Source: Mobula hypostoma (lineage: Eukaryota). From it: a stretch of DNA of 64,000 bases. Position numbers and translations under genes: made by a program. Position 1 is the stretch's first letter. Each line of letters begins with the position of its first letter. The stretch is taken from assembly GCF_963921235.1 (NCBI RefSeq), contig NC_086108.1:62436001-62500000 (forward strand). Direction: 5' to 3'. This document shows, piece after piece, positions 49,309-58,600 of the stretch. The notes below the pieces were generated by a model that worked only from the letters and a program-made list of their open reading frames with translations, was not told where the DNA came from and ran no database searches.

Positions 49309-51384
49309 GGATCTTACGGATGGAGACGCTTTCGGGAGAAAGGTCTGCTAGCTCAATGTAGGCTCGATATTCATATGCTAAACACAAAGGCAATCGCTAC
49401 TACTTAAAAAGTTATAGACAATGCTTAGACAATGCTTCCTTTTGAAGCTACATACAAACATCACACCTTCGGATTTCATCCTTTCCTTCTGACGCCAACA
49501 TGTCCGGGTTGGTATCCACAGCCTTTAGTCCAATCCACAATACATTTATTTAGCATTTTACGTGCTAACATAGAAGACAATTAATATTTATAATGTATAG
49601 ATAATACTGTCTTTGAAACTACAGCATCTGGTCAAACTATGGTGCCAGAAGCATCTGGTATTCACACCTTTTAGGAAGCCCATTGTGGTGGACTCAATCC
49701 ACAGTCCTTTGTCAAACGGTTAAAATAGAAGTCTGGTGGCCAAAGTCATTTAAATGTAAAGAAATCATCTACTTAAAAAAAACTCACTCTAACAGTGACA
49801 AATCAGCATATAGGAGGGAGATTGAAAATCTGGCTGAGTAACAACCACCTCTGACTCTGTCAGCAAGACCAAGGAGCTGATTAGTGACCTCAGCAAGAGG
49901 AAACTAGAGGTCTATGTGCCAGTCCTCTTTGTAGATCTGGAAGTGGAGAGGGTCAGCAGCCTCAAATTCCTCAGTGTTATCATTTCAGAGGGTCTGCCTG
50001 GGCTCAGCATGTAAGTACAATTACAAAGAAAGTATGGCAGTGCTTCTACTTCCTTGTGAGTTTGTGAAGATTCTGCATGATATCTAAAATGTTGACAAAC
50101 TTCTATAGATGTGTGGTGGAGAGTATATTGACTGGCTGCATCAGAGCCTGGTATGGAAACACCACTGCCATTGAACAGAAAAAAAGTAGTGGATGCAGCC
50201 CAGTTCATTATGGGTAAAGCCCTCCACACCATTGAGCACATCGACATGAAGCCTTGTTGCAGGAAAGCAGCATCCCTCATCAGGGACTCCCACCGCCATG
50301 GTTCAGGGACAGTTATTATGCCTCAACCATCAGGCGCTTGAACCAAAGGGGATATCTTCACTCAACTTCACTTGCCCAACAATGAAATGTTACCACAACC
50401 TCTGGACTCACTTCCAAGGACTCTTCATCTCATGCTCTCAATATTTATTGCTTATTTATTTATTAGTATTATTTCTTTCTTTTTGTATTTGCACAGTTTA
50501 TGACTTGTGCACTCTGGTTGAATGCCCAAGTTGGCGTGGTCTTTCAGTGATTCGGTTATGTTTATTATTCTATGATGCATTTATTGAGTATGCCCACAAG
50601 GAAACAAATCTCAGGGCTGCGAACGGTTTCTTCCATAATAAATTTATTTTCAGCTTTGAATACACTGCTATGCATCATCTAGTGATGTCTTTTATGCTAT
50701 GGATCTTATGCTAATGTGCCTGAGCATAAAGTTAATTGGTATGATGCTTCTCCATTAAGCTTATCATCTCATTGCCATGATTGTGAGAGATATACACTTG
50801 TATCACTGCTGCAGAGTTGGTCTGGCAATGATTGTGTGTGTGACCTCTGATGTTACTACCTGACTGTGACTCATCTTTGATTATTCAGCTCTTAGAATGT
50901 TTGTCATGGACATTGCTGAGAAAACCAGCCTTCGGAGAGGCTTAGGAAACGAGCCTTTGGAGAGGCAGAGTAACATGGTGTTCCACTGTGTCTCTTTCCT
51001 TGAGTGCCACCTGTTATTTGAGGCATTGAAAGGGCTGTGAAGTAATAACTTCTGTCAGGAAGCATTGCACAACATTAATTAGAACATATTGCTGAGATCT
51101 GAGTGAAACTCTGTGCTCTAGCTGTTGGTAATTCAACTGTTGTGCCTATTGTGTCCCTTGAAATTATTATTTGATGTAATAACATAAAATAAACCCCACC
51201 AGAAGCCTCACAAGAAAGTTTTGTTGGTGAATAGGTATGGATTTCACTGGCTTGAAATGTTTGACCCTCGGTGGCTTCCCTTGCTATCCCTTGAATGTCA
51301 ATCTGATCAAAACATTGTTATTACTCATAAAGTGCTGTAGTTATATTTCCTGCTGGTTTTCAGTGTTCACTCATCTAGAACTGC

Positions 51385-51613
51385 TGATGAGATCCAAAGC
51401 CAAGAAAAAGAACAAAACTGGAACATGAAATAAACTTCATTTAGTGAAACCACACAACTACAAAAAAATCTCAAAATCCAAAAGTGCATCCCAAAACACA
51501 ACTACATAAATGGTTTGCCCTAGAGCATTTGGAATGCTGATAGGAACGATGACCGGTCAGTGAAAGTCAGCCTGAGATAGGTTGTCAACAGGTTGTTTCG
51601 GCTCACCATAACA
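51385..51613 (-). repeat. 3' LTR of the minus-strand Gypsy element
   Basis: TGTTA...CATCA on the minus strand, next to the PPT, homologous to 62610-62840. Confidence 0.75.
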
Positions 51614-51635
51614 CCTCACTCTTGAAGATGATAAC

Positions 51636-51833
51636 TGTGTTATTATGTGTATACATAATAAAGAACTTCAGTTCCCAATGGGCAATGCTTGTGGTTCACA
51701 TGGAACCGAAAGGATACAGGTGTTTATTGCATGAGCTCAGGCTGGAGAAATAGCTATTGCTGTAAATGTGTAAATAAAATAGTTCTCATGTTTTTACCCA
51801 CGCTGTTTGTCTTTACAAAGAATAAGCATAGCA
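51636..51833 (+). repeat. 5' LTR
   Basis: TGTGTTATTA...CATAGCA with AATAAA; direct repeat of 53991-54190. Confidence 0.9.
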
Positions 51834-51851
51834 TGGTGTCAGAGTTGGAAT
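51834..51851 (+). promoter_or_regulatory. Primer-binding site, tRNA-Leu-like (degenerate)
   Basis: TGGTGTCAGAGTTGGAAT immediately after the LTR; compare TGGTGTCAGAAGTGGGAT, complementary to the tRNA-Leu 3' end. Confidence 0.75.
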
Positions 51852-52223
51852 GATGTCAAAATACAGACAGTAAATGAATACCGTGAGTGACAGAAGAAAG
51901 AGATACAAGACAGAGCAAGACACAGCGAGTGAGGTCGGCCAAGGAGGTGGCATCGCTCGTTGTGTCCAGAAGTTCACCAAAAGATTCAGGTGGGAGAAAG
52001 CCGAAACATTCTGTTATGCACAACTGAAGTTCACCTTCACCTATGCAGTTTACCAGCAATCTAATGGATAACTGGAAACACTTCAAACAGTGATTCAATA
52101 TATATATTAGTGGCGAGTAGAGCAAGAGGGGTGGATGAAAAATTGAAAATGTCTATCTTTCTGCTTGTAATTGGTAAATATGCTTTGGACATCTATAACA
52201 GCTTTCAAATTGATGAGACAGCC

Positions 52224-52356
52224 TAAGCACCTTTAAAATTCCACTGGTCTAGATTTGACCAGGCATCACCCCTGAAGAAGATGGCAGAGTTGTCATTGAA
52301 ACACCGATTATAACCGATACCCATACCCTGCTGTAAACCTGAGAAGTGTCTATTCA
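52224..52356 (+). mobile_element. 133-bp insert in gag, probably the pseudo-LTR of a second Penelope-like family
   Basis: TSD tgatgagacagcc (52211-52223) / tgataagacagcc (52357-52369); hammerhead-like CTGAAGA-A-GATGGCA-GAGT-TGTCATT-GAAAC. Confidence 0.7.
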
Positions 52357-53148
52357 TGATAAGACAGCCCTTGCATTGGACTCTCTGATGGCAAAATTTG
52401 GGGAGTATTTTGTCCCAAGTAAAAGGGTCAGGTTAGAGAGATATAAGTTCTTTTCCTCTGACCAGAAACAAGGTGTTAGCTTTCATCAATATTTAGCTGA
52501 GCTTTTCACACTAAGTAAATCCTGTGAGTTTGGAGATTTGAGAGACGCACTAGTCAGAGACAAAATAGTTTGTGGAGTCCCAGATAATGGGCTCAAAGAA
52601 AGCTTGCTCCGTGAAAAAGATCTGATGCTGGGAAAGGCTATGAATATGTGTTGGGCAGTAGAGACCACACGAACAAAGCTGGGGCAACCAAGATAAAAGT
52701 GCACATTGTTGCTGAGGAAATGGAGGAAGTGTTTGTGGATACTCTGCAGACTGCTGGTGCTGGTACAATAGAATGGATTGTCCCAGTGACTGTGAATGAG
52801 GCAGTAATTCCATGCAAGCTTGGCACCAGAGCCCAGGTAAGTCTGTTATCCATGGAGGATTACAAGACTCTCAAAGTAAAGAGCAAGATTTACCCAGTGA
52901 AGTTAAGAGACAGGCTATACTGGAGAGAACGTTCCAGTAAAAAGGGGCTGTATAATGACCTTCAAGCACAAGGGGCTGCACCTAAAGGAACAGCTACTGA
53001 TTGTAGAAAAGTGAGTACAGCCAGTACTTATTCTGAATGCATGTGAAAGGCTCAACCTGGTAGAAAGGGTTTTTGTCATCGCTTCACAGATGGCTATGCA
53101 GCATTCATGGAAGAGCATGCAGATGTCTTTGAGGGACTCAGATGCTTA

Positions 53149-53676
53149 CTTGAGGTTACTTGAGAAACTCATTACAGCATCCATGGGAGCTCAGAGAGCT
53201 TACGCAAGGAAAGCACAATAACTCCACCTTCCATAGATATCTGTACGAGCTACAGTCAGAATGCCAGTGCTTGATCATGATGACAAAGATGCCAGTCTTG
53301 CTTCCACATCACGCAGCTTTGGTTCAACATCTGTCTCTTATCAACTTCCAGTTAAAGACTGGAAATCAAAACTACCTCCATGAACCTCTCTGAAGTTGAA
53401 GAGGAAGAGTAAAATGGAAGATGGGGTGACCACATGGAGCCAAAGGTCAGAACATCAGCAACAGTGCAAAACAAGCCAACAGGATGAGTTGCTATCTATG
53501 ATACGTAGCCAACAGAAGGCGCTCTGTGAATTGAGACAGAATTCATTGGAACTTGTGCAACAACTCACTGATTGTATGGATGTAGTCCAGGGCTCCATTA
53601 TAAGGCATATGGAGCAAATTATGGTCACACAGCAAGAACGAAACAGAAATGAACTGATAGGATCTTGGCAGAAGGA
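53149..53676 (+). pseudogene. EDC4: Intronless fragment of enhancer of mRNA-decapping protein 4, captured inside the Gypsy element
   Basis: Translates (with frameshifts) to EVT*ET...QGKHNNSTFHR...QNASA..DHDDKDASLASTSRSFGST...LPVKDWKSKLPP*TSLKLKRKSKMEDG...SEHQ...QQKALCELRQNSLELVQQL...QK*TDRILAEG. Colinear with remembered human EDC4 DITRET...QEKHKSLAFHR...QDASAEQSDHDDEVASLASASGGFGT...LPAKDWKTKGSPRTSPKLKRKSKKDDG...TEHQ...QQRELAELRHSQEELLQRL...QRRLERALAEG. Confidence 0.9.
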
Positions 53677-53990
53677 TGTGAAAAAATTGAACATATTGAT
53701 CAGAGTTCTCAGAAAGACACTAATATTAACACAGCAAGTGAAAGTAATTCACCTGTGGAGACAAATAGTGGACCAAAAAAGATCATCAAACCACCTCAGA
53801 GACTGATTGAGAGTTTAAGAGTGAATAAAGGACTGTATATGCTCATTACAATTGGTTAATGTAAATATCTGTGTTGGAAAGCTCATTACAGTTAAAGTTA
53901 ATATAAATACTTTTGTTGGAAAGGATGATTGTTTCTTGCAGGTTTGTGAGGACATAGTATTGTGTTTGTTTTTTTTCTTTAATGAGAAGA

Positions 53991-54190
53991 TGTCTTATTA
54001 TATGTGTACATAACAAAGAACTTCAGTTCCCAGTGGGCAATGCGTGTGTTTCTTGCGGAACCAGAAAGGATGCAGGTGAGCTGCTTACACACACTCGGGC
54101 TGGAGAAAAAGCCATTGCTGTGAATCTGTAATAAAATAGTTCTACCATTTTTACCCATGCTGTATGTCTTTACAAAGAACAAACCTAACA
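53991..54190 (+). repeat. 3' LTR
   Basis: TGTCTTATTA...CCTAACA, preceded by the purine tract AATGAGAAGA. Confidence 0.9.
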
Positions 54191-55213
54191 ATAGTATGTA
54201 AGATTTGTGCAGAGGGTTGATGTGGATTGGAACAAATGGCTTATGCTTGCTATCCGTCCTTCTTACTGGTTGCAGGCTCTGACTTTCTTGTGACATTGCT
54301 TGCGGCTGCACTGATACTGGAGATTAGTTCAGTTGGCGTAAATCAAACACTTCCAGGAGGAGATGAAGGCCCAGCTCTGTGTTTGATGATCTGCCCAATG
54401 AACTTGTTGTGCTGTCAAGAGCACATGGCTGCAACTGGTTGATATGGCAAAGCCAGTGATGTTTGTTTATGATAACTTTGTAGAGCACTTTCCCTATTTG
54501 TTTGATAATCTTACTTGATATCCAGTGGTCTTGCCCATTGCAATACTATCCGGCCAACACTGCGGCTCCGGGTTTGAATGACTTCACCTATCAAGGTCTA
54601 TGGCTGCCTTTATCCACCTGACCATCTTCTGTCTTGAATTTTGATACTTTGGAGCATTACATCCAACACTGTGCAGTTTTCTTCCCAAAAGCACTTCAGC
54701 TGCAGACTTCCTCTTGAGGTTTGGATGTGGTCTAATGCGCTATGTCAGCAGAAATGTATTGAGCGCCTCAGCTGATGCTTCTTCCCTTCTTGATTTCAGT
54801 AGTGACCATTTGAAGGTATCCACAACCCTCTTTGTTTGGTTGTTGCACTGAGGATGATAGGGGGGTGAGTGGATGTGGATAATTCTGTTGTTCTGGAAGA
54901 ATGCAGCGAACTGAATCGAGTGCCATTGTTGAGAAACAATTGTTTCTGGCATCACAAAATGGCTAATGATCTGCAGCAGATGTTGAGTGGTAGCCTCTGT
55001 TGTTGTTGACTTCATAGATAAGACTTTTGGGCATTTGGAAAAGGTGTCAACCAGGACAAGGGAGGTACACCCATTGATTGGGCCAGTGAAGCTAATATGT
55101 ACTCGACTCCAAGGTCTGGTGGCCTGAGGTCATGGTTGGGGATCGACTCTACTTGGATTCTTTGCCACCAAAGAGCACTGAGTATTCTGTTTGCACGCAG
55201 ATGTGATGTCTTA

Positions 55214-55668
55214 GTTTCACCAAGTTGATTCCAGAGATGAGGGGGTCAGACTATGAGGAGAGATTGAGTAGCCTGGGTCTGTACTCACTGGAATTCAGAA
55301 GAATGAAAGGAGATCTTGTAGAAACATAAAATTCTGAAAGGGATAGATAAGGCAGAGGCAGGAAAGTTGTTTCCACTGATAGGCAAGATTAGAACTAGGG
55401 GACATAGCCTCAAGATTGAGGGGAGTAGATTTAGGACGGAAATGAGAAACTATTTTTCTTAGAGGGTGGTGAATCTGTGGAATTCTCTGCAAATATATTT
55501 AAGACAACTTGGATAGATCTTTTCATAGTAGGGGAATTAAGGGTTATGGGGAAAAGGCAAGTAGTTTGAAATGAGTCCATGGCCAGATCAGCCATGATCT
55601 TATTGAATGGCAGAGCAGGCTTGACAGGACAGATGACCGACTCCTGCTCCTACTACTTACGTTCTAAT
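55214..55668 (+). mobile_element. CR1 3' fragment inserted in the Gypsy integrase region
   Basis: ttcaccaagttgattccag...gtggtgaatctgtggaattc...ctcctgctcctac. Confidence 0.88.
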
Positions 55669-58600
55669 GTTATATTCTTCATCTGTGCCCAGCCAGTACA
55701 TTGCGTTCCTTGCCAGAACTTTCATTGAATTGATTTCCAGGTGACTATGCTGTATTTGTTTCAATACTTTTGGTTGAAGTGTTCATGGAATCACTATCCT
55801 GTCTCCAATCAATAGGCAGGAATCCACAGTTGATAGCAATGCATGAAGTTGTTCGATGGATATGACATCTTCCTCAACCTTGATTGGCCATCTGTCAATG
55901 TGGTATTTGGAAATACACTGAAGAAGACGATCTGCTGTTGTTTCTACTCTTGAGCTTGTCAACCGTGGCTGGAAGATTTTCAGCAGCATCCGATACTACA
56001 CAATGGCCTTCACAATCAATTGAAATCACAGCCACAACTGCGTCTTTGCTTTCAGTAACCTGCTGATTCATAAGTCAGGAGAGGGTATCTGTCTGACTAA
56101 GTTGACATGAACTTGATTTCAAAATCATAGGCTTGATTTCAAATCATCATTGCCCACATTAGTAGATGGTTAGCTATATACATGGGATCCCTTTCTTAGA
56201 CTCAAAGATGGACAACAGTGGCTTGTGATCAGTAAGGAGAGTAAGGTGTTTGCCGTAAAGCATCTTGTGGAATTTCTTCATGGAGAAGATGATTCCAAAA
56301 GTTTCCTTCACTATTTGTGCAAAGTTCCTTTCTGCTGTATGCATGACAGCTTTTTCAGAACCATCAGGGAAGATGTAGGATATAATAGATCACAGCAGGA
56401 TGCATCTCATCATCAATGATTGGCAACACTAGATTCAAATGTGTCTAGGGAAGGTCAGATGACAGCATATGATCAAAAGCCTCTTGACATTATTTGGACC
56501 ATTTGCATGTGGCACCTTGTTGAGCAGGGCATTGAATGACTCCCTCAGCTGGTGCCTGGCTGGGAGAAATGCTGAAACATGACTGATCATGCTCAAAAAT
56601 GATCATAAAGTGCTGACATCTGATGGTGGAGGCATCTTTAAGATAATAGTGTTTTTTTTTTCAGGATCTGGGCAAAGACCGTGCTCATCCGTGATGAATC
56701 CCAGATACATGAGGAGGCTGCATTTTTCTGCCTGACGATGCAATCCAAATTCTTGTAGTTTGGTCAGCACGTGGTCCAGGTGTTGGCATAGTTGTGTCTG
56801 ATCCCTCCTCTTCACACTGATGGCATGGAGGTAAATGACATCATCATCAATACCAATCAGCATGGTGTCAATAAACTGTTGGGAAATTGAGGGAGCCACC
56901 TTTATCCTGAAAAGCAGGCAGATGATGGAAAACACCCCTTTACATGCTGTAATAGTGAGAAGCTCCTGTGAATTATCTGTCACCTCTACCTGGAGGTAGG
57001 CTTCAGCCAAGTCCAACTTCACAAAGTTGTGACCACTTTTCAATTTTGTGAAGCGTTCTGCAGGTAGCAGCTACTGGTGTGTCTCTAGAGCCACTCTGAG
57101 ACCAGTTGAGAAATCTGCACACAACCTCACTGTAACATTGGCTTTCTTGGCAATGACTGTTGGAGCAGCCCAACATAAGTAGTTGACAGCTTTGATAACA
57201 CCAGCTTGTTGCAGGCCAGCTAGCTCTTGCTCCACGATTGGTATTGTACTGTGTTTTGTGCTAGTCTTTTGGGACAGAGGACTAACTTTTTGTCTGGATG
57301 GAGATTGAGTTATGCTTGCAGTTTGGTGCAGCAACATAAACCTTCTGGAAACTCTGCTGCATAGCGTTACTGCAGTTGTTGTTGTCCGGTCTCACATACT
57401 AATGGCGGTATGGTGTCAACATGATTTGAATAGCCAATGTCTTTGTACAGACCTCAACCAGAGTGATGCTTTAGAGACCATCCAGTCAATGCCAAGGATA
57501 TTCAGTTCTGGCTGGTCTGTTGGGTAACACATACTTTTGACTTGGTTATCCTTCAGCATCACCATGCAGTGAGCTCGACAATCAGCTGAGACGTTCCACT
57601 TGATGCACTCCAGGCAGAGTGATGAGTTGATTTGACTGCTGGTCACCAAAGGGCCCGCCACATGTGTTTGGAGATGATAGTGATGTTTGATGCCATATGG
57701 AGTTGTAGTTGTAGATTGTTGATAAATAAATTGACATACCATCTCCTGGGGGGTGAAGTCAACTTTGATCGTGATCATTATCTCCTTGTAGATTTTGATG
57801 GCTTTTGAAACTTCTCGTGCTTGTGTTTTACTGGCCTAGAACACAGTGAAGGATGGCAAAAGCCTTCTTTGTGACCATTGCGTTGGCATTTGCTGAAAAT
57901 GTTTTTCTTGTATTGGAAGTTTCTTGCGTAATACCACGCACCACTGTTCCACAAGCTGTGCTTAGTCACCTGTGGACCTGCTGAGTGATGATGTCGGGGT
58001 TACTGGAAAATCTTTTTTACATCTGTTCTGTAGGTTGAACTCCAAGGCTGCTCACAGTAGTCCAGATTATGCCTCACCAGTGTCTTATACAATTTCAACT
58101 TAACATCCCAACTCCTGTACTCAGTACATCGATCTATGAAGACCAATGTGGCAAAAGCTTTCTTCATGACCTATCTACCTGTAATACCACATTCAAGGCA
58201 TTATGACTCTGTATTCCCAGATCCCTCTGTTCTACCATACCCCTCAGTACCACTCACCATGTAAGACACACCCTGGTTGGCCCTCCCAAAATGCAACACC
58301 TCATACCTAACTGTGTTAAATTCCATCTGCCATTTTTTTAACCCATTTTTCCAGCTGGTCCAGATCTCACTGCAAGAAGTGATAGTCTTCCTCACTGCCC
58401 ACTACACCCCAAATCTCGGTGTCAAACGCAAATTTGCTGATCCAGTTTACCACATTAACATCCAGATCATTAATACAGATGACAAACAACATGGGACCTT
58501 GCACTAATCCCTGTGGCACACCACTAGTCACAGGCCTCCAGTCAGAGAGGCAACCATCTACAATAACTCTTTGGCTTCTTCCGTGAAGCCAATATCTAAC

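What the first reader, a model, noticed from the sequence alone, without database searches (positions are those of the whole stretch)
51636..54190. Gypsy LTR retrotransposon carrying a captured, intronless piece of the host decapping/P-body gene EDC4
Seen: two ~200-bp LTRs, a tRNA-Leu-like PBS, gag and protease, then ~530 bp (53149-53676) translating to a non-transposon protein, then an integrase C-terminal tail, PPT and 3' LTR. RT, RNase H and the integrase core are absent. Established (from memory of the protein): the insert is colinear with vertebrate EDC4, from the end of the Ser-rich linker (DHDD..ASLAS, KDWK, KLKRKSK) into the C-terminal helical region. LTR-mediated retroposition by RT template switching onto a co-packaged mRNA is a known mechanism. 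Inference: this is a transduced spliced EDC4 mRNA fragment in a non-autonomous element. I know of no described example for EDC4 or for cartilaginous fish. EDC4 scaffolds P-bodies, and yeast Ty3 particles assemble with P-body components, so the cargo may not be random (speculative).
Basis: partly seen in the sequence, partly recalled or inferred. Interest (0 to 1): 0.92.

Follow-up and report, generated by a model that had tools for sequence, protein, structure and literature searches.

The report
Retrotransposon family carrying captured EDC4 fragment
An old, crippled gypsy-type jumping gene in a ray-like fish genome swapped its own copying enzymes for an intron-free piece of the host's EDC4 (mRNA-decapping scaffold) gene and then multiplied, cargo included, to hundreds of copies; the capture mechanism is a known one, but the scale is unusual for a vertebrate.

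Summary
Window 51636-54190 is a decayed 2.56-kb LTR element with two ~200-bp LTRs, a PBS, gag, protease, the first ~13 residues of RT, ~540 bp of EDC4, the last ~41 codons of pol, a PPT and a 3' LTR.

The cargo matches host EDC4 residues 828-1016. It runs colinearly over six exons of the host gene on contig C55, so five introns are missing.

A related autonomous Gypsy element in the same genome (L067) shows that the cargo replaces about 2.4 kb of RT-RNaseH-integrase. Short homology lies at both junctions, and both junctions are in frame.

The window copy is one member of an old family:
- 37 of 39 scored genome matches span both junctions.
- A junction-specific 27-mer occurs 116 times, against 0 in the control.
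- Different 5-bp target duplications flank different copies.
- LTR-LTR K2P averages 0.21.
- Contigs of two other coded organisms bridge this very insertion's 3' end.

No selection signal on the cargo was detectable.

Three other captured-mRNA Gypsy chimeras were noted earlier by this scan in the same genome. I did not check them. They make a special role for EDC4 less likely.

Verdict: a real, well-supported new member of LTR-mediated retroposition, unusual in how far it amplified.

The parts
51631..51635 (.). Left target-site duplication (ATAAC), decayed
   Evidence: ATAAC before the 5' LTR against ATAGT after the 3' LTR, 3 of 5 alike. Other copies have perfect 5-bp duplications (GTGCT, CTTGG).
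51636..51833 (+). 5' LTR (198 bp, TG...CA)
51834..51849 (+). Primer-binding site TGGTGTCAGAGTTGGA. Other copies have TGGTGTCAGAAGT...
   Evidence: sequence. The tRNA-Leu assignment is recalled, not tested.
51995..52687 (+). gag remnant. It is interrupted by a foreign short repeat at 52225-52356. It lacks about 170-210 bp, the zinc-knuckle part, that other copies have near 52675.
   Evidence: P0014 aa 67-247. (the gap relative to other copies). (zinc knuckles in other copies).
52225..52356 (.). Secondary insertion of a ~125-bp high-copy short repeat. It is absent from the other family members.
   Evidence: the other copies skip it. (1094 first-look candidates, 80-83% identity).
52654..53109 (+). 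Aspartic protease and the PR-RT linker
   Evidence: P0014 aa 305-483. (Asp_protease_2 at P0014 349-434).
53110..53149 (+). First ~13 residues of reverse transcriptase (EEHADVFEGLRCL), up to the left junction
   Evidence: the autonomous alignment ends at 53149; a loose end at 53149 continues as the RT of the autonomous type.
53150..53690 (+). Captured spliced EDC4 mRNA fragment, host aa 828 to ~1016. Exon pieces: A 53150-53189, B 53190-53271, C 53272-53425, micro-exon 53426-53458, D 53459-53644, E 53645 to ~53690. In this copy it has 3 stops and several frameshifts.
53691..53823 (+). Last ~41 codons of pol (integrase C-terminal tail), in frame with the cargo
53979..53990 (+). Polypurine tract
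   Evidence: purine run directly before the 3' LTR. Other copies have AAAGGGGGAAGA or AAAGGTGGAAGA.
53991..54190 (+). 3' LTR (200 bp)
54191..54195 (.). Right target-site duplication (ATAGT), decayed

Best explanation
This is one decayed copy of a multi-copy, non-autonomous Ty3/Gypsy family that arose once.

Origin (inferred). During reverse transcription of an autonomous Gypsy element, the enzyme switched from the element's RNA onto a co-packaged, spliced host EDC4 mRNA. It switched at a patch of similarity near the end of pol, copied about 565 nt (aa 828-1016), and switched back at a second short homology just inside RT. The product kept LTRs, PBS, PPT, gag and protease. It lost RT, RNase H and integrase. 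It encoded one open frame: Gag-PR-(RT start)-EDC4 fragment-(pol tail).

Spread. Lacking enzymes, the chimera was copied and integrated by the autonomous family in trans, making 5-bp target duplications. It spread in one old burst to several hundred copies, which have since decayed neutrally.

Shown here: the anatomy, the intron loss, the exact replacement, the junction homology, both in-frame joins, the many dispersed copies, their age, and the presence of the autonomous relatives.

Inferred: template switching in a particle, and supply of RT and IN in trans.
For: Cargo identity. 12 of 12 significant hits are EDC4, with 71% identity over aa 876-998.

Intron loss. The host gene on C55 has the matching exons separated by introns of about 2.2, 2.0, 2.2, 1.4 and 5.0 kb, including a 34-nt micro-exon. 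The window aligns to these exons back to back.

Replacement. The autonomous relative L067 aligns with the window up to 53149 and again from 53675. It holds about 2430 bp of RT-RH-IN in between.

Left junction. The element reads TTACCTG(G/A)TGTACAC in 4 copies, the host GCACCTGATGTAACTC, and the chimeras TTACCTGATGTAACTC. The shared ACCTG is exact, and 9 of 10 positions agree. At random junctions P is 0.0066 for 5 or more exact and 0.0003 for 9 of 10 or better.

Right junction. The crossover lies in a patch that contains the exact GTGAAA, where host and element agree at about 11 of 15 positions.

Reading frame. ORFs in copies L025 and L026 read from protease across ...VFEGLGCL|PDVTRETRN... into EDC4. 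The window ORF 53653-53859 reads from EDC4 into the pol tail.

Family size and spread.
- 39 non-self matches were scored of 669 first-look candidates, and 37 of the 39 span both junctions.
- 32 of 33 scored protein matches are chimeric copies.
- The copies are colinear over the whole element, with unrelated flanks.
- The left-junction 27-mer with up to 3 mismatches occurs 116 times, against 0 in the reversed control. 15 of 43 sampled copies match it, which gives roughly 330 copies.

Target duplications. Of 7 copies read at both ends, 2 are perfect and differ from each other (GTGCT, CTTGG), 4 agree at 3 of 5, and 1 is unclear.

Age and shape.
- LTR-LTR K2P has a mean of 0.213 (n=15). The autonomous L067 has 0.271.
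- Copy-host identity is 85.6% and copy-copy identity 81.8%. The tree is star-like.

Partner. The autonomous family is multi-copy at the same divergence: 671 and 483 first-look candidates, 72-82% identity.

Other organisms. Contigs of coded organisms B and C bridge this insertion's 3' LTR-flank junction, with 9/386 and 20/371 differences.
Against: - Only one to four decayed autonomous copies define each junction, so the exact ancestral microhomology is uncertain. Copies differ (G or A) at one position on the left, and the right junction needs gaps to align.
- Sequence alone cannot separate RNA-level template switching from DNA-level joining of an element cDNA with an EDC4 cDNA.
- The window's own TSD agrees at only 3 of 5 positions.
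- The copy number is an extrapolation from a sample biased toward well-preserved copies.
- A contig join 51632->54338 in runs of organisms B-D is unexplained. It is not a precise empty site: it lies 148 nt beyond the LTR end, and the flanks are themselves repetitive.
Confidence: 0.92

Rival explanations
1. DNA-level origin. An ordinary EDC4 processed pseudogene or free cDNA recombined with an element copy or element cDNA by microhomology-mediated end joining or ectopic recombination. The resulting chimera was then transcribed and mobilised.
For: Microhomology of 5-10 nt is also what end joining leaves. The cargo is intronless either way.
Against: Two independent microhomology joins replace the internal part exactly while keeping the frame at both ends. 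That pattern is the one reported for RT template switches (PMC5131818, passages read). No poly(A) or pseudogene flank travels with the cargo. All 32 EDC4-like matches scored outside the host gene are chimeric copies, so no stand-alone EDC4 retrocopy was seen. Only 33 of 4636 candidates were scored.
Confidence: 0.05
2. Nested insertion. A LINE-made EDC4 processed pseudogene landed inside a Gypsy copy, and later deletions removed RT-RH-IN.
For: The window copy does carry one unrelated nested repeat, at 52225-52356.
Against: The cargo is an internal mRNA piece (aa 828-1016 of 1398) without 3' end, poly(A) or flanking duplication. The same two junctions are shared by 37 of 39 scored copies on many contigs, each with its own flanks and TSDs. 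So the chimera itself transposed.
Confidence: 0.01
3. Cargo with a function. The in-frame Gag-PR-EDC4 fusion helped the chimera, for example by tying its particles or RNA to P-body or decapping machinery, or by interfering with host EDC4. That would explain why it amplified as much as its autonomous partner.
For: - Both junctions are in frame.
- No stop is shared by more than 49% of 43 copies, and no indel by 30% or more, so the founder's frame was probably open.
- First-look candidate counts are equal for the chimera and the partner, 669 against 671.
- Ty3 particles assemble with P-body components (PMC4589538; search listing and start of abstract only).
Against: - Copy-copy dN/dS in frame is 0.60, against 0.63 and 0.79 out of frame. 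The phylogeny is star-like, so the test has little power.
- Capture and burst were nearly simultaneous. Host-branch dS of about 0.15 roughly equals per-copy decay of about 0.15 (derived). An open frame therefore needs no selection.
- 0 of 43 copies is stop-free now.
- Unrelated cargoes are reported in the same genome (unchecked).
Confidence: 0.1

Closest known systems
LTR-mediated retroposition: chimeric retrocopies flanked by discontinuous LTR-element sequence (Tan et al. 2016, PMC5131818; passages read)
   Same: - Partial spliced host mRNA replaces an internal part of the element's ORF.
- Microsimilarity lies at both fusion points. The paper reports a median of 6 bp, and 10 bp in a mouse IAP case.
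- There is no poly(A).
- The paper notes chimeras that behave as non-autonomous elements, and it includes zebrafish cases (5 of 7).
   Different: The paper's cases are single or few-copy young loci, with two Drosophila retrocopies at more than one site. Here one capture gave a family of hundreds of old copies, in frame at both ends, in a cartilaginous fish.
Maize Bs1 and rice LTR elements with captured gene fragments (as cited in PMC5131818; originals not read)
   Same: A non-autonomous LTR retrotransposon keeps gag and carries host gene fragments in place of pol.
   Different: These are plant cases. Bs1 is low-copy and carries pieces of three genes. Here there is a single fragment and a high copy number.
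Host mRNA capture by crocodilian endogenous retroviruses: KIT-ligand, nectin3 (Chong et al. 2014, PMC4299795; passages read)
   Same: A vertebrate LTR retroelement captured a spliced host mRNA, partly at the expense of a viral gene. The carriers then multiplied, and the capture predates speciation.
   Different: Those are retroviruses. They carry near full-length ORFs reported to be under purifying selection, in a handful of copies. Here a Gypsy element carries an internal fragment with no detectable selection, in hundreds of copies.
Non-autonomous LTR elements mobilised in trans (LARD/TRIM type; recalled, no call)
   Same: They keep LTR, PBS and PPT, lack RT and IN, and depend on an autonomous partner with matching ends.
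   Different: LARDs and TRIMs usually carry no recognisable host coding cargo. This one keeps gag and protease and carries host exons.
Other captured-mRNA Gypsy chimeras noted by this scan in the same genome (e1-7790823 SUDS3, e1-7790852 RBM25, e1-7791871 myosin; AI notes, unchecked here)
   Same: Same genome, same kind of element, pol replaced by spliced host mRNA, and the chimera is multi-copy.
   Different: The cargoes differ. Whether these derive from the same Gypsy lineage as this family was not tested.

Membership tests
Ty3/Gypsy (Metaviridae) LTR retrotransposon | Direct LTRs with TG...CA ends flanking the element | tested here: met
Ty3/Gypsy (Metaviridae) LTR retrotransposon | PBS next to the 5' LTR and polypurine tract next to the 3' LTR | tested here: met
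   TGGTGTCAG... in all copies read, and a purine run before the 3' LTR. Which tRNA primes was not tested.
Ty3/Gypsy (Metaviridae) LTR retrotransposon | gag with zinc knuckle and aspartic protease, related to a polyprotein with the order PR-RT-RH-IN | tested here: met
   P0014 is 64% identical to a copy's PR ORF. P0014 carries Asp_protease_2, RVT_1, RT_RNaseH, Integrase_H2C2 and rve, in that order; gag and PR hits in the window; zinc knuckles in other copies. The window copy lacks that piece.
Ty3/Gypsy (Metaviridae) LTR retrotransposon | Own RT, RNase H and integrase (autonomy) | tested here: not met
   only about 13 RT residues and about 41 pol-tail residues remain. It is therefore a non-autonomous derivative.
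Ty3/Gypsy (Metaviridae) LTR retrotransposon | Short (4-6 bp) target-site duplication | tested here: met
   Of 7 copies read at both ends, 2 have perfect 5-bp TSDs, 4 agree at 3 of 5 (including the window), and 1 is unclear.
LTR-mediated retrocopy / transduction by template switching | Cargo lacks the introns of the parent gene | tested here: met
   five introns are absent.
LTR-mediated retrocopy / transduction by template switching | Cargo replaces internal element sequence instead of interrupting a continuous element | tested here: met
   about 2430 bp of L067 is replaced.
LTR-mediated retrocopy / transduction by template switching | Microsimilarity between mRNA and element at the fusion points | tested here: met
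   Simulation: P = 0.0066 and 0.0003 for the left junction. The right junction is imperfect (about 11 of 15 positions with gaps) and was not simulated.
LTR-mediated retrocopy / transduction by template switching | The switch happens at RNA level inside a particle | not testable with these tools
   Inference only.
LINE-made processed pseudogene | 3' end of the mRNA with poly(A), and a 7-20 bp target duplication around the retrocopy | tested here: not met
   an internal mRNA piece with no A-run and no flanking repeat.

The most novel reading that the evidence does not exclude
Ray genomes may harbour a Gypsy lineage that serially packs spliced host mRNAs in frame behind Gag-PR and amplifies them to hundreds of copies. 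That would be a retroelement counterpart of Pack-MULEs.

In this reading the EDC4 piece was more than ballast. It comprises the end of the Ser-rich linker plus the start of the helical region. Fused to Gag-PR, it would have tied the chimera's particles to the host's decapping and P-body scaffold, or blunted it. That would have helped the chimera match its autonomous partner in copy number.
Probability: 0.1. Interest if true: 0.85.

Novelty: new member of a known kind. Interest (0 to 1): 0.5.

Why it matters
It is a fully dissectable vertebrate example of LTR-mediated gene capture. The parent gene, the autonomous donor element, both breakpoints with their homologies, and the amplified product all lie in one genome.

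It shows that such a chimera can match its autonomous partner in first-look candidate counts and scatter hundreds of host-exon fragments through a genome. These fragments can confuse gene annotation as EDC4-like hits, and they are raw material for exon shuffling.

The earlier notes of other cargoes in the same genome are unchecked. If they hold, gene capture by Gypsy elements may be recurrent in batoids, and that would be worth a genome-wide survey.

EDC4's role in P-bodies makes a functional cargo conceivable, but nothing here shows it.

Tried and rejected
- Pfam on seven window ORFs gave nothing meaningful. A PDB sequence search with the 140-aa ORF also gave nothing. Only EDC4 aa 1266-1386 has a solved relative, 2VXG, so no structure covers the cargo.
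- A near-length protein search with a copy's junction-spanning ORF gave 0 significant hits among 88 candidates. No annotated chimeric protein was found in other assemblies at those lengths.
- The eight best genome matches to P0014 (L059-L066) are not the partner. They share only an ~80-bp gag stretch at 70-72% identity. L068 also showed no DNA match.
- The PBS-tRNA identity could not be tested. No tRNA gene lies in the window, and I did not type a tRNA from memory.
- Scan notes searched by sequence gave nothing.
- Complex prediction with two copies of EDC4 aa 925-1016 gave no verdict. This is neither for nor against self-association.
- Sequencing runs: no RNA holder is listed. Run X1 is only guessed to be RNA. 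Its exact low-depth contigs over the locus do not show transcription.
- The contig join 51632->54338 in runs X6, X11 and X12 was considered as an empty site and rejected. It ends 148 nt past the LTR, and the flanks are repetitive.
- The bacterial promoter and terminator scan and the composition profile are irrelevant here.
TSDs therefore rest on 7 copies, and each junction on 4 autonomous sequences.
- Literature: I found no paper on EDC4 capture or on captured-gene LTR elements in cartilaginous fish. Search terms were 'EDC4 / LTR retrotransposon / captured', 'EDC4 / retrocopy / retrogene / processed pseudogene / Ge-1', 'elasmobranch / LTR retrotransposon / non-autonomous / stingray / transposable elements' and 'non-autonomous LTR / host gene fragment / gene capture / vertebrate / Gypsy'. 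Repeat databases such as Repbase and Dfam could not be searched.
Full report
**What is in the window**

Positions 51636-51833 and 53991-54190 are direct repeats. One search finds three blocks at 84-85% identity. One search aligns 197 nt at 82.2% identity (K2P 0.206). The repeats start TG and end CA. A PBS-like TGGTGTCAGAGTTGGA follows the first repeat, and a purine run precedes the second.

Between the repeats, tblastn with an autonomous Gypsy polyprotein (P0014, found) marks two regions:
- gag at 51995-52687;
- the protease region at 52654-53148.

It finds no RT, RNase H or integrase inside the element.

Pfam alone saw nothing in the decayed ORFs.

**The cargo is EDC4**

I read frame 53237-53806 with X at its single TGA and searched it against longer proteins. 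Twelve proteins reached E<=0.01 among 269 candidates. [quoted passage not shown] The best is Hemitrygon akajei at E 1.6e-42, with 87 of 123 residues identical over aa 876-998.

Neighbouring frames extend the match upstream (KHNNSTFHRY) and downstream (TDRILAEG).

In Pfam terms the captured aa 828-1016 lie between Ge1_WD40 (124-447) and EDC4_C (1266-1386). From recall, this is the end of the Ser-rich linker and the start of the helical region. No solved structure covers it.

**The cargo is intronless**

The window's genome is 3.48 Gb in 200 contigs. It holds the real EDC4 gene on contig C55, and its exons encode protein 97-100% identical to Hemitrygon EDC4.

After refining the splice sites and finding a 34-nt micro-exon that tblastn had missed, the region has six exons. 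Introns of roughly 2.2, 2.0, 2.2, 1.4 and 5.0 kb separate them.

The window aligns to these exons back to back:

| Window | Host exon | Identity |
|---|---|---|
| 53148-53189 | end of exon A | 81% |
| 53188-53271 | B | 77% |
| 53272-53425 | C | 88% |
| 53452-53639 | D | 85% |
| 53651-53710 | start of E | 82% |

The micro-exon sits in the gap between C and D. Five introns are therefore missing, which means the cargo came from spliced mRNA. It is an internal piece of the message, with no A-run and no flanking duplication of its own.

**It replaces pol exactly**

P0014 is a 1373-aa polyprotein with domains in the order Asp_protease_2, RVT_1, RT_RNaseH, Integrase_H2C2, rve. Its RT begins ...FKDVFEGLGCLPGEHKIHVD, and it ends ...RPKRTVQPPKRLIESC.

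A decayed autonomous relative in this genome is L067 (C91, minus strand). It aligns with the window at DNA level over the LTR, gag and protease up to 53149, and again from 53675 to the 3' LTR. About 2430 bp of RT-RH-IN lies in between.

The autonomous family is itself multi-copy at the same divergence:
- 671 first-look candidates, 40 scored, 77-82% identity;
- 483 first-look candidates for the integrase tail, 40 scored.

**Junctions**

With four autonomous sequences at each side:

- Left junction. The element reads TTACCTG(G/A)TGTACAC, the host GCACCTGATGTAACTC, and the chimeras TTACCTGATGTAACTC. The shared ACCTG is exact, and 9 of 10 positions agree. In 200,000 random junction pairs between L067's interior and the host CDS, 5 or more exact occurred with P = 0.0066. 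Nine or more of 10 occurred with P = 0.0003.
- Right junction. The crossover (about 53685-53691) lies in a patch that includes the exact GTGAAA. Host GTGAAAGAAATGGAC and element GTGAAAAATAAAC agree at about 11 of 15 positions when gaps are allowed. I did not simulate this junction.

Loose ends of contigs in run X1 leave the window at 53149 and continue as autonomous RT. Others join before 53699 coming from autonomous pol. Both agree with these breakpoints.

Both joins are in frame:
- ORFs in copies L025 and L026 read ...VFEGLGCL|PDVTRETRNSI....
- The window ORF 53653-53859 reads from TDRILAEG into the pol tail ...KKIIKPPQRLIESL.

The founder therefore encoded Gag-PR-(about 13 RT residues)-EDC4(828-1016)-(about 41 pol residues).

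**It is a family, not a single event**

- A 651-nt query spanning both junctions gave 669 first-look candidates. Of 39 scored non-self matches (77-81% identity), 37 span both junctions and all 39 span the right one.
- With EDC4 protein as the query, 32 of 33 scored matches are such copies. The other one is the host gene.
- Forty-two distinct copies were compared with the window. They are colinear over the whole element, and their flanks do not match the window's flanks.
- Relative to these copies, the window copy has an extra ~132 bp at 52225-52356, a foreign short repeat. It also lacks about 170-210 bp with the gag zinc knuckles.
- Seven copies could be read at both ends. Two have perfect and different 5-bp duplications (GTGCT, CTTGG). 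Four, including the window, agree at 3 of 5. One is unclear.
- A left-junction 27-mer with up to 3 mismatches occurs 116 times in the genome, and 0 times for the reversed control. Fifteen of the 43 sampled copies match it. That gives about 330 copies. The estimate is rough, because the sample favours well-kept copies.

**Age and mode**

- LTR-LTR K2P in 15 chimeric copies averages 0.213 (range 0.146-0.269). The autonomous L067 has 0.271.
- In the cargo, copies are 85.6% identical to the host CDS but only 81.8% identical to each other. The protein tree is star-like with long tips (quick tree).
- Nei-Gojobori estimates give copy-copy dN/dS of 0.60 in frame, against 0.63 and 0.79 in the two wrong frames. 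That is no sign of selection among copies. Copy-host dN/dS is 0.42, against 0.71 and 0.85, as expected from constraint on the host gene.
- Subtracting half the copy-copy distances leaves a founder-host branch of about dS 0.15 and dN 0.04. That dS roughly equals the per-copy decay, so capture and burst were close in time (my derivation).
- None of the 43 copies is stop-free in the cargo. No stop is shared by more than 49% of copies, and no indel by 30% or more. The recurrent stops are CGA->TGA. The founder's frame was therefore probably open.
- In the tree, the copies attach next to host and Hemitrygon EDC4. Narcine plus the sharks sit behind a branch with SH-aLRT 88. This is weak evidence for capture within the stingray-type lineage.

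**Other organisms**

Coded runs of organism B hold 31-39% of the locus's sampled words.

When laid on the locus, a contig of organism B covers 54006-54391 with 9 differences. A contig of organism C covers 54130-54500 with 20 differences. Both bridge the 3' LTR-flank junction. A contig of organism D (52967-53538) bridges the left cargo junction.

The 5' junction is reached by only 29-30 letters in the LTR, which is below the tool's 31-letter rule.

This insertion's LTR divergence (0.206) is about four times the A-C divergence at the locus (about 0.054). The insertion is therefore much older than that split. I give no absolute date, because no calibrated rate came from a tool.

**Mechanism and comparison**

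The anatomy matches the published model of LTR-mediated retroposition (PMC5131818, passages read). In that model, RT starts on the element's RNA. A microsimilarity moves it onto a co-packaged mRNA, and a second one brings it back. The paper reports a median microsimilarity of 6 bp, cases in zebrafish, chicken and mouse, and chimeras acting as non-autonomous elements.

Vertebrate ERVs that captured KIT-ligand and nectin3 mRNAs are a second precedent (PMC4299795, passages read).

What differs here is the scale (hundreds of copies) and the in-frame fusion. The cargo and the host group also differ. Four literature searches found no report of them. Repeat databases could not be checked.

**Cargo function**

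Ty3 does use P-body components (PMC4589538; listing and start of abstract only). The selection tests here are powerless or neutral. A self-association prediction gave no verdict.

Earlier notes of this scan report SUDS3, RBM25 and myosin fragments captured by Gypsy elements in the same genome. I did not check those notes. If they hold, capture is recurrent and the choice of cargo is probably incidental.

**Verdict**

This is a new member of a known kind. It is notable as a complete, amplified vertebrate example, and it may be part of a wider capture habit of Gypsy elements in rays.

Noticed in passing
window 52225-52356: A ~125-bp short repeat sits inside gag of this copy only. It is flanked by a 12-14-bp near-repeat (GATGAGACAGCC / GATAAGACAGCC). 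The genome holds many relatives (1094 first-look candidates, 80-83% identity), and some hits are adjacent inverted pairs, so it may be MITE- or SINE-like.
   Followed up: partly
window about 52675: The window copy lacks about 170-210 bp that other family members have here. That piece includes the gag zinc knuckles.
   Followed up: partly
window 54740-56938, minus strand: Remnant of a different Gypsy-like pol lies next to the element. An rve-like ORF at 54740-55129 scores 27.6 bits, E 3.7e-06, below Pfam's cut-off of 32.6. P0014 aligns at 27-37% identity over 55660-56938.
   Followed up: partly
host gene, G000:C55:21385717-21385684 (in L051): EDC4 has a 34-nt micro-exon (ETTQSPRTEQQ) between two larger exons. 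tblastn missed it. The captured cDNA contains it.
   Followed up: yes
L030 and L036 (G000:C5, about 75 kb apart): Two chimeric copies are nearly identical (tree branches 0.004 and 0.014, against a median of 0.22). This is most likely a later segmental duplication, not a young transposition.
   Followed up: no
EDC4 cargo of 43 copies: The recurrent stops are nearly all CGA->TGA at five Arg codons, in 12-21 of 42-43 copies each. This indicates strong CpG decay, consistent with germline methylation of these elements.
   Followed up: partly
L044, gag region: One copy carries a tandem expansion inside gag: a repeated ~10-residue unit, read as ...EGQSTRHFPT..., in a 228-aa ORF.
   Followed up: no
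P0014 (Logan contig, 4405 bp): An uninterrupted 1373-aa gag-pol ORF of the same Gypsy lineage exists in a public run of unknown organism. The best matches to it in this genome all carry stops.
   Followed up: no
window 51300-51635 and 54296-54500: The flanks of the insertion are themselves repetitive. Summed contig depth there is tens of times the single-copy level in three runs.
   Followed up: no
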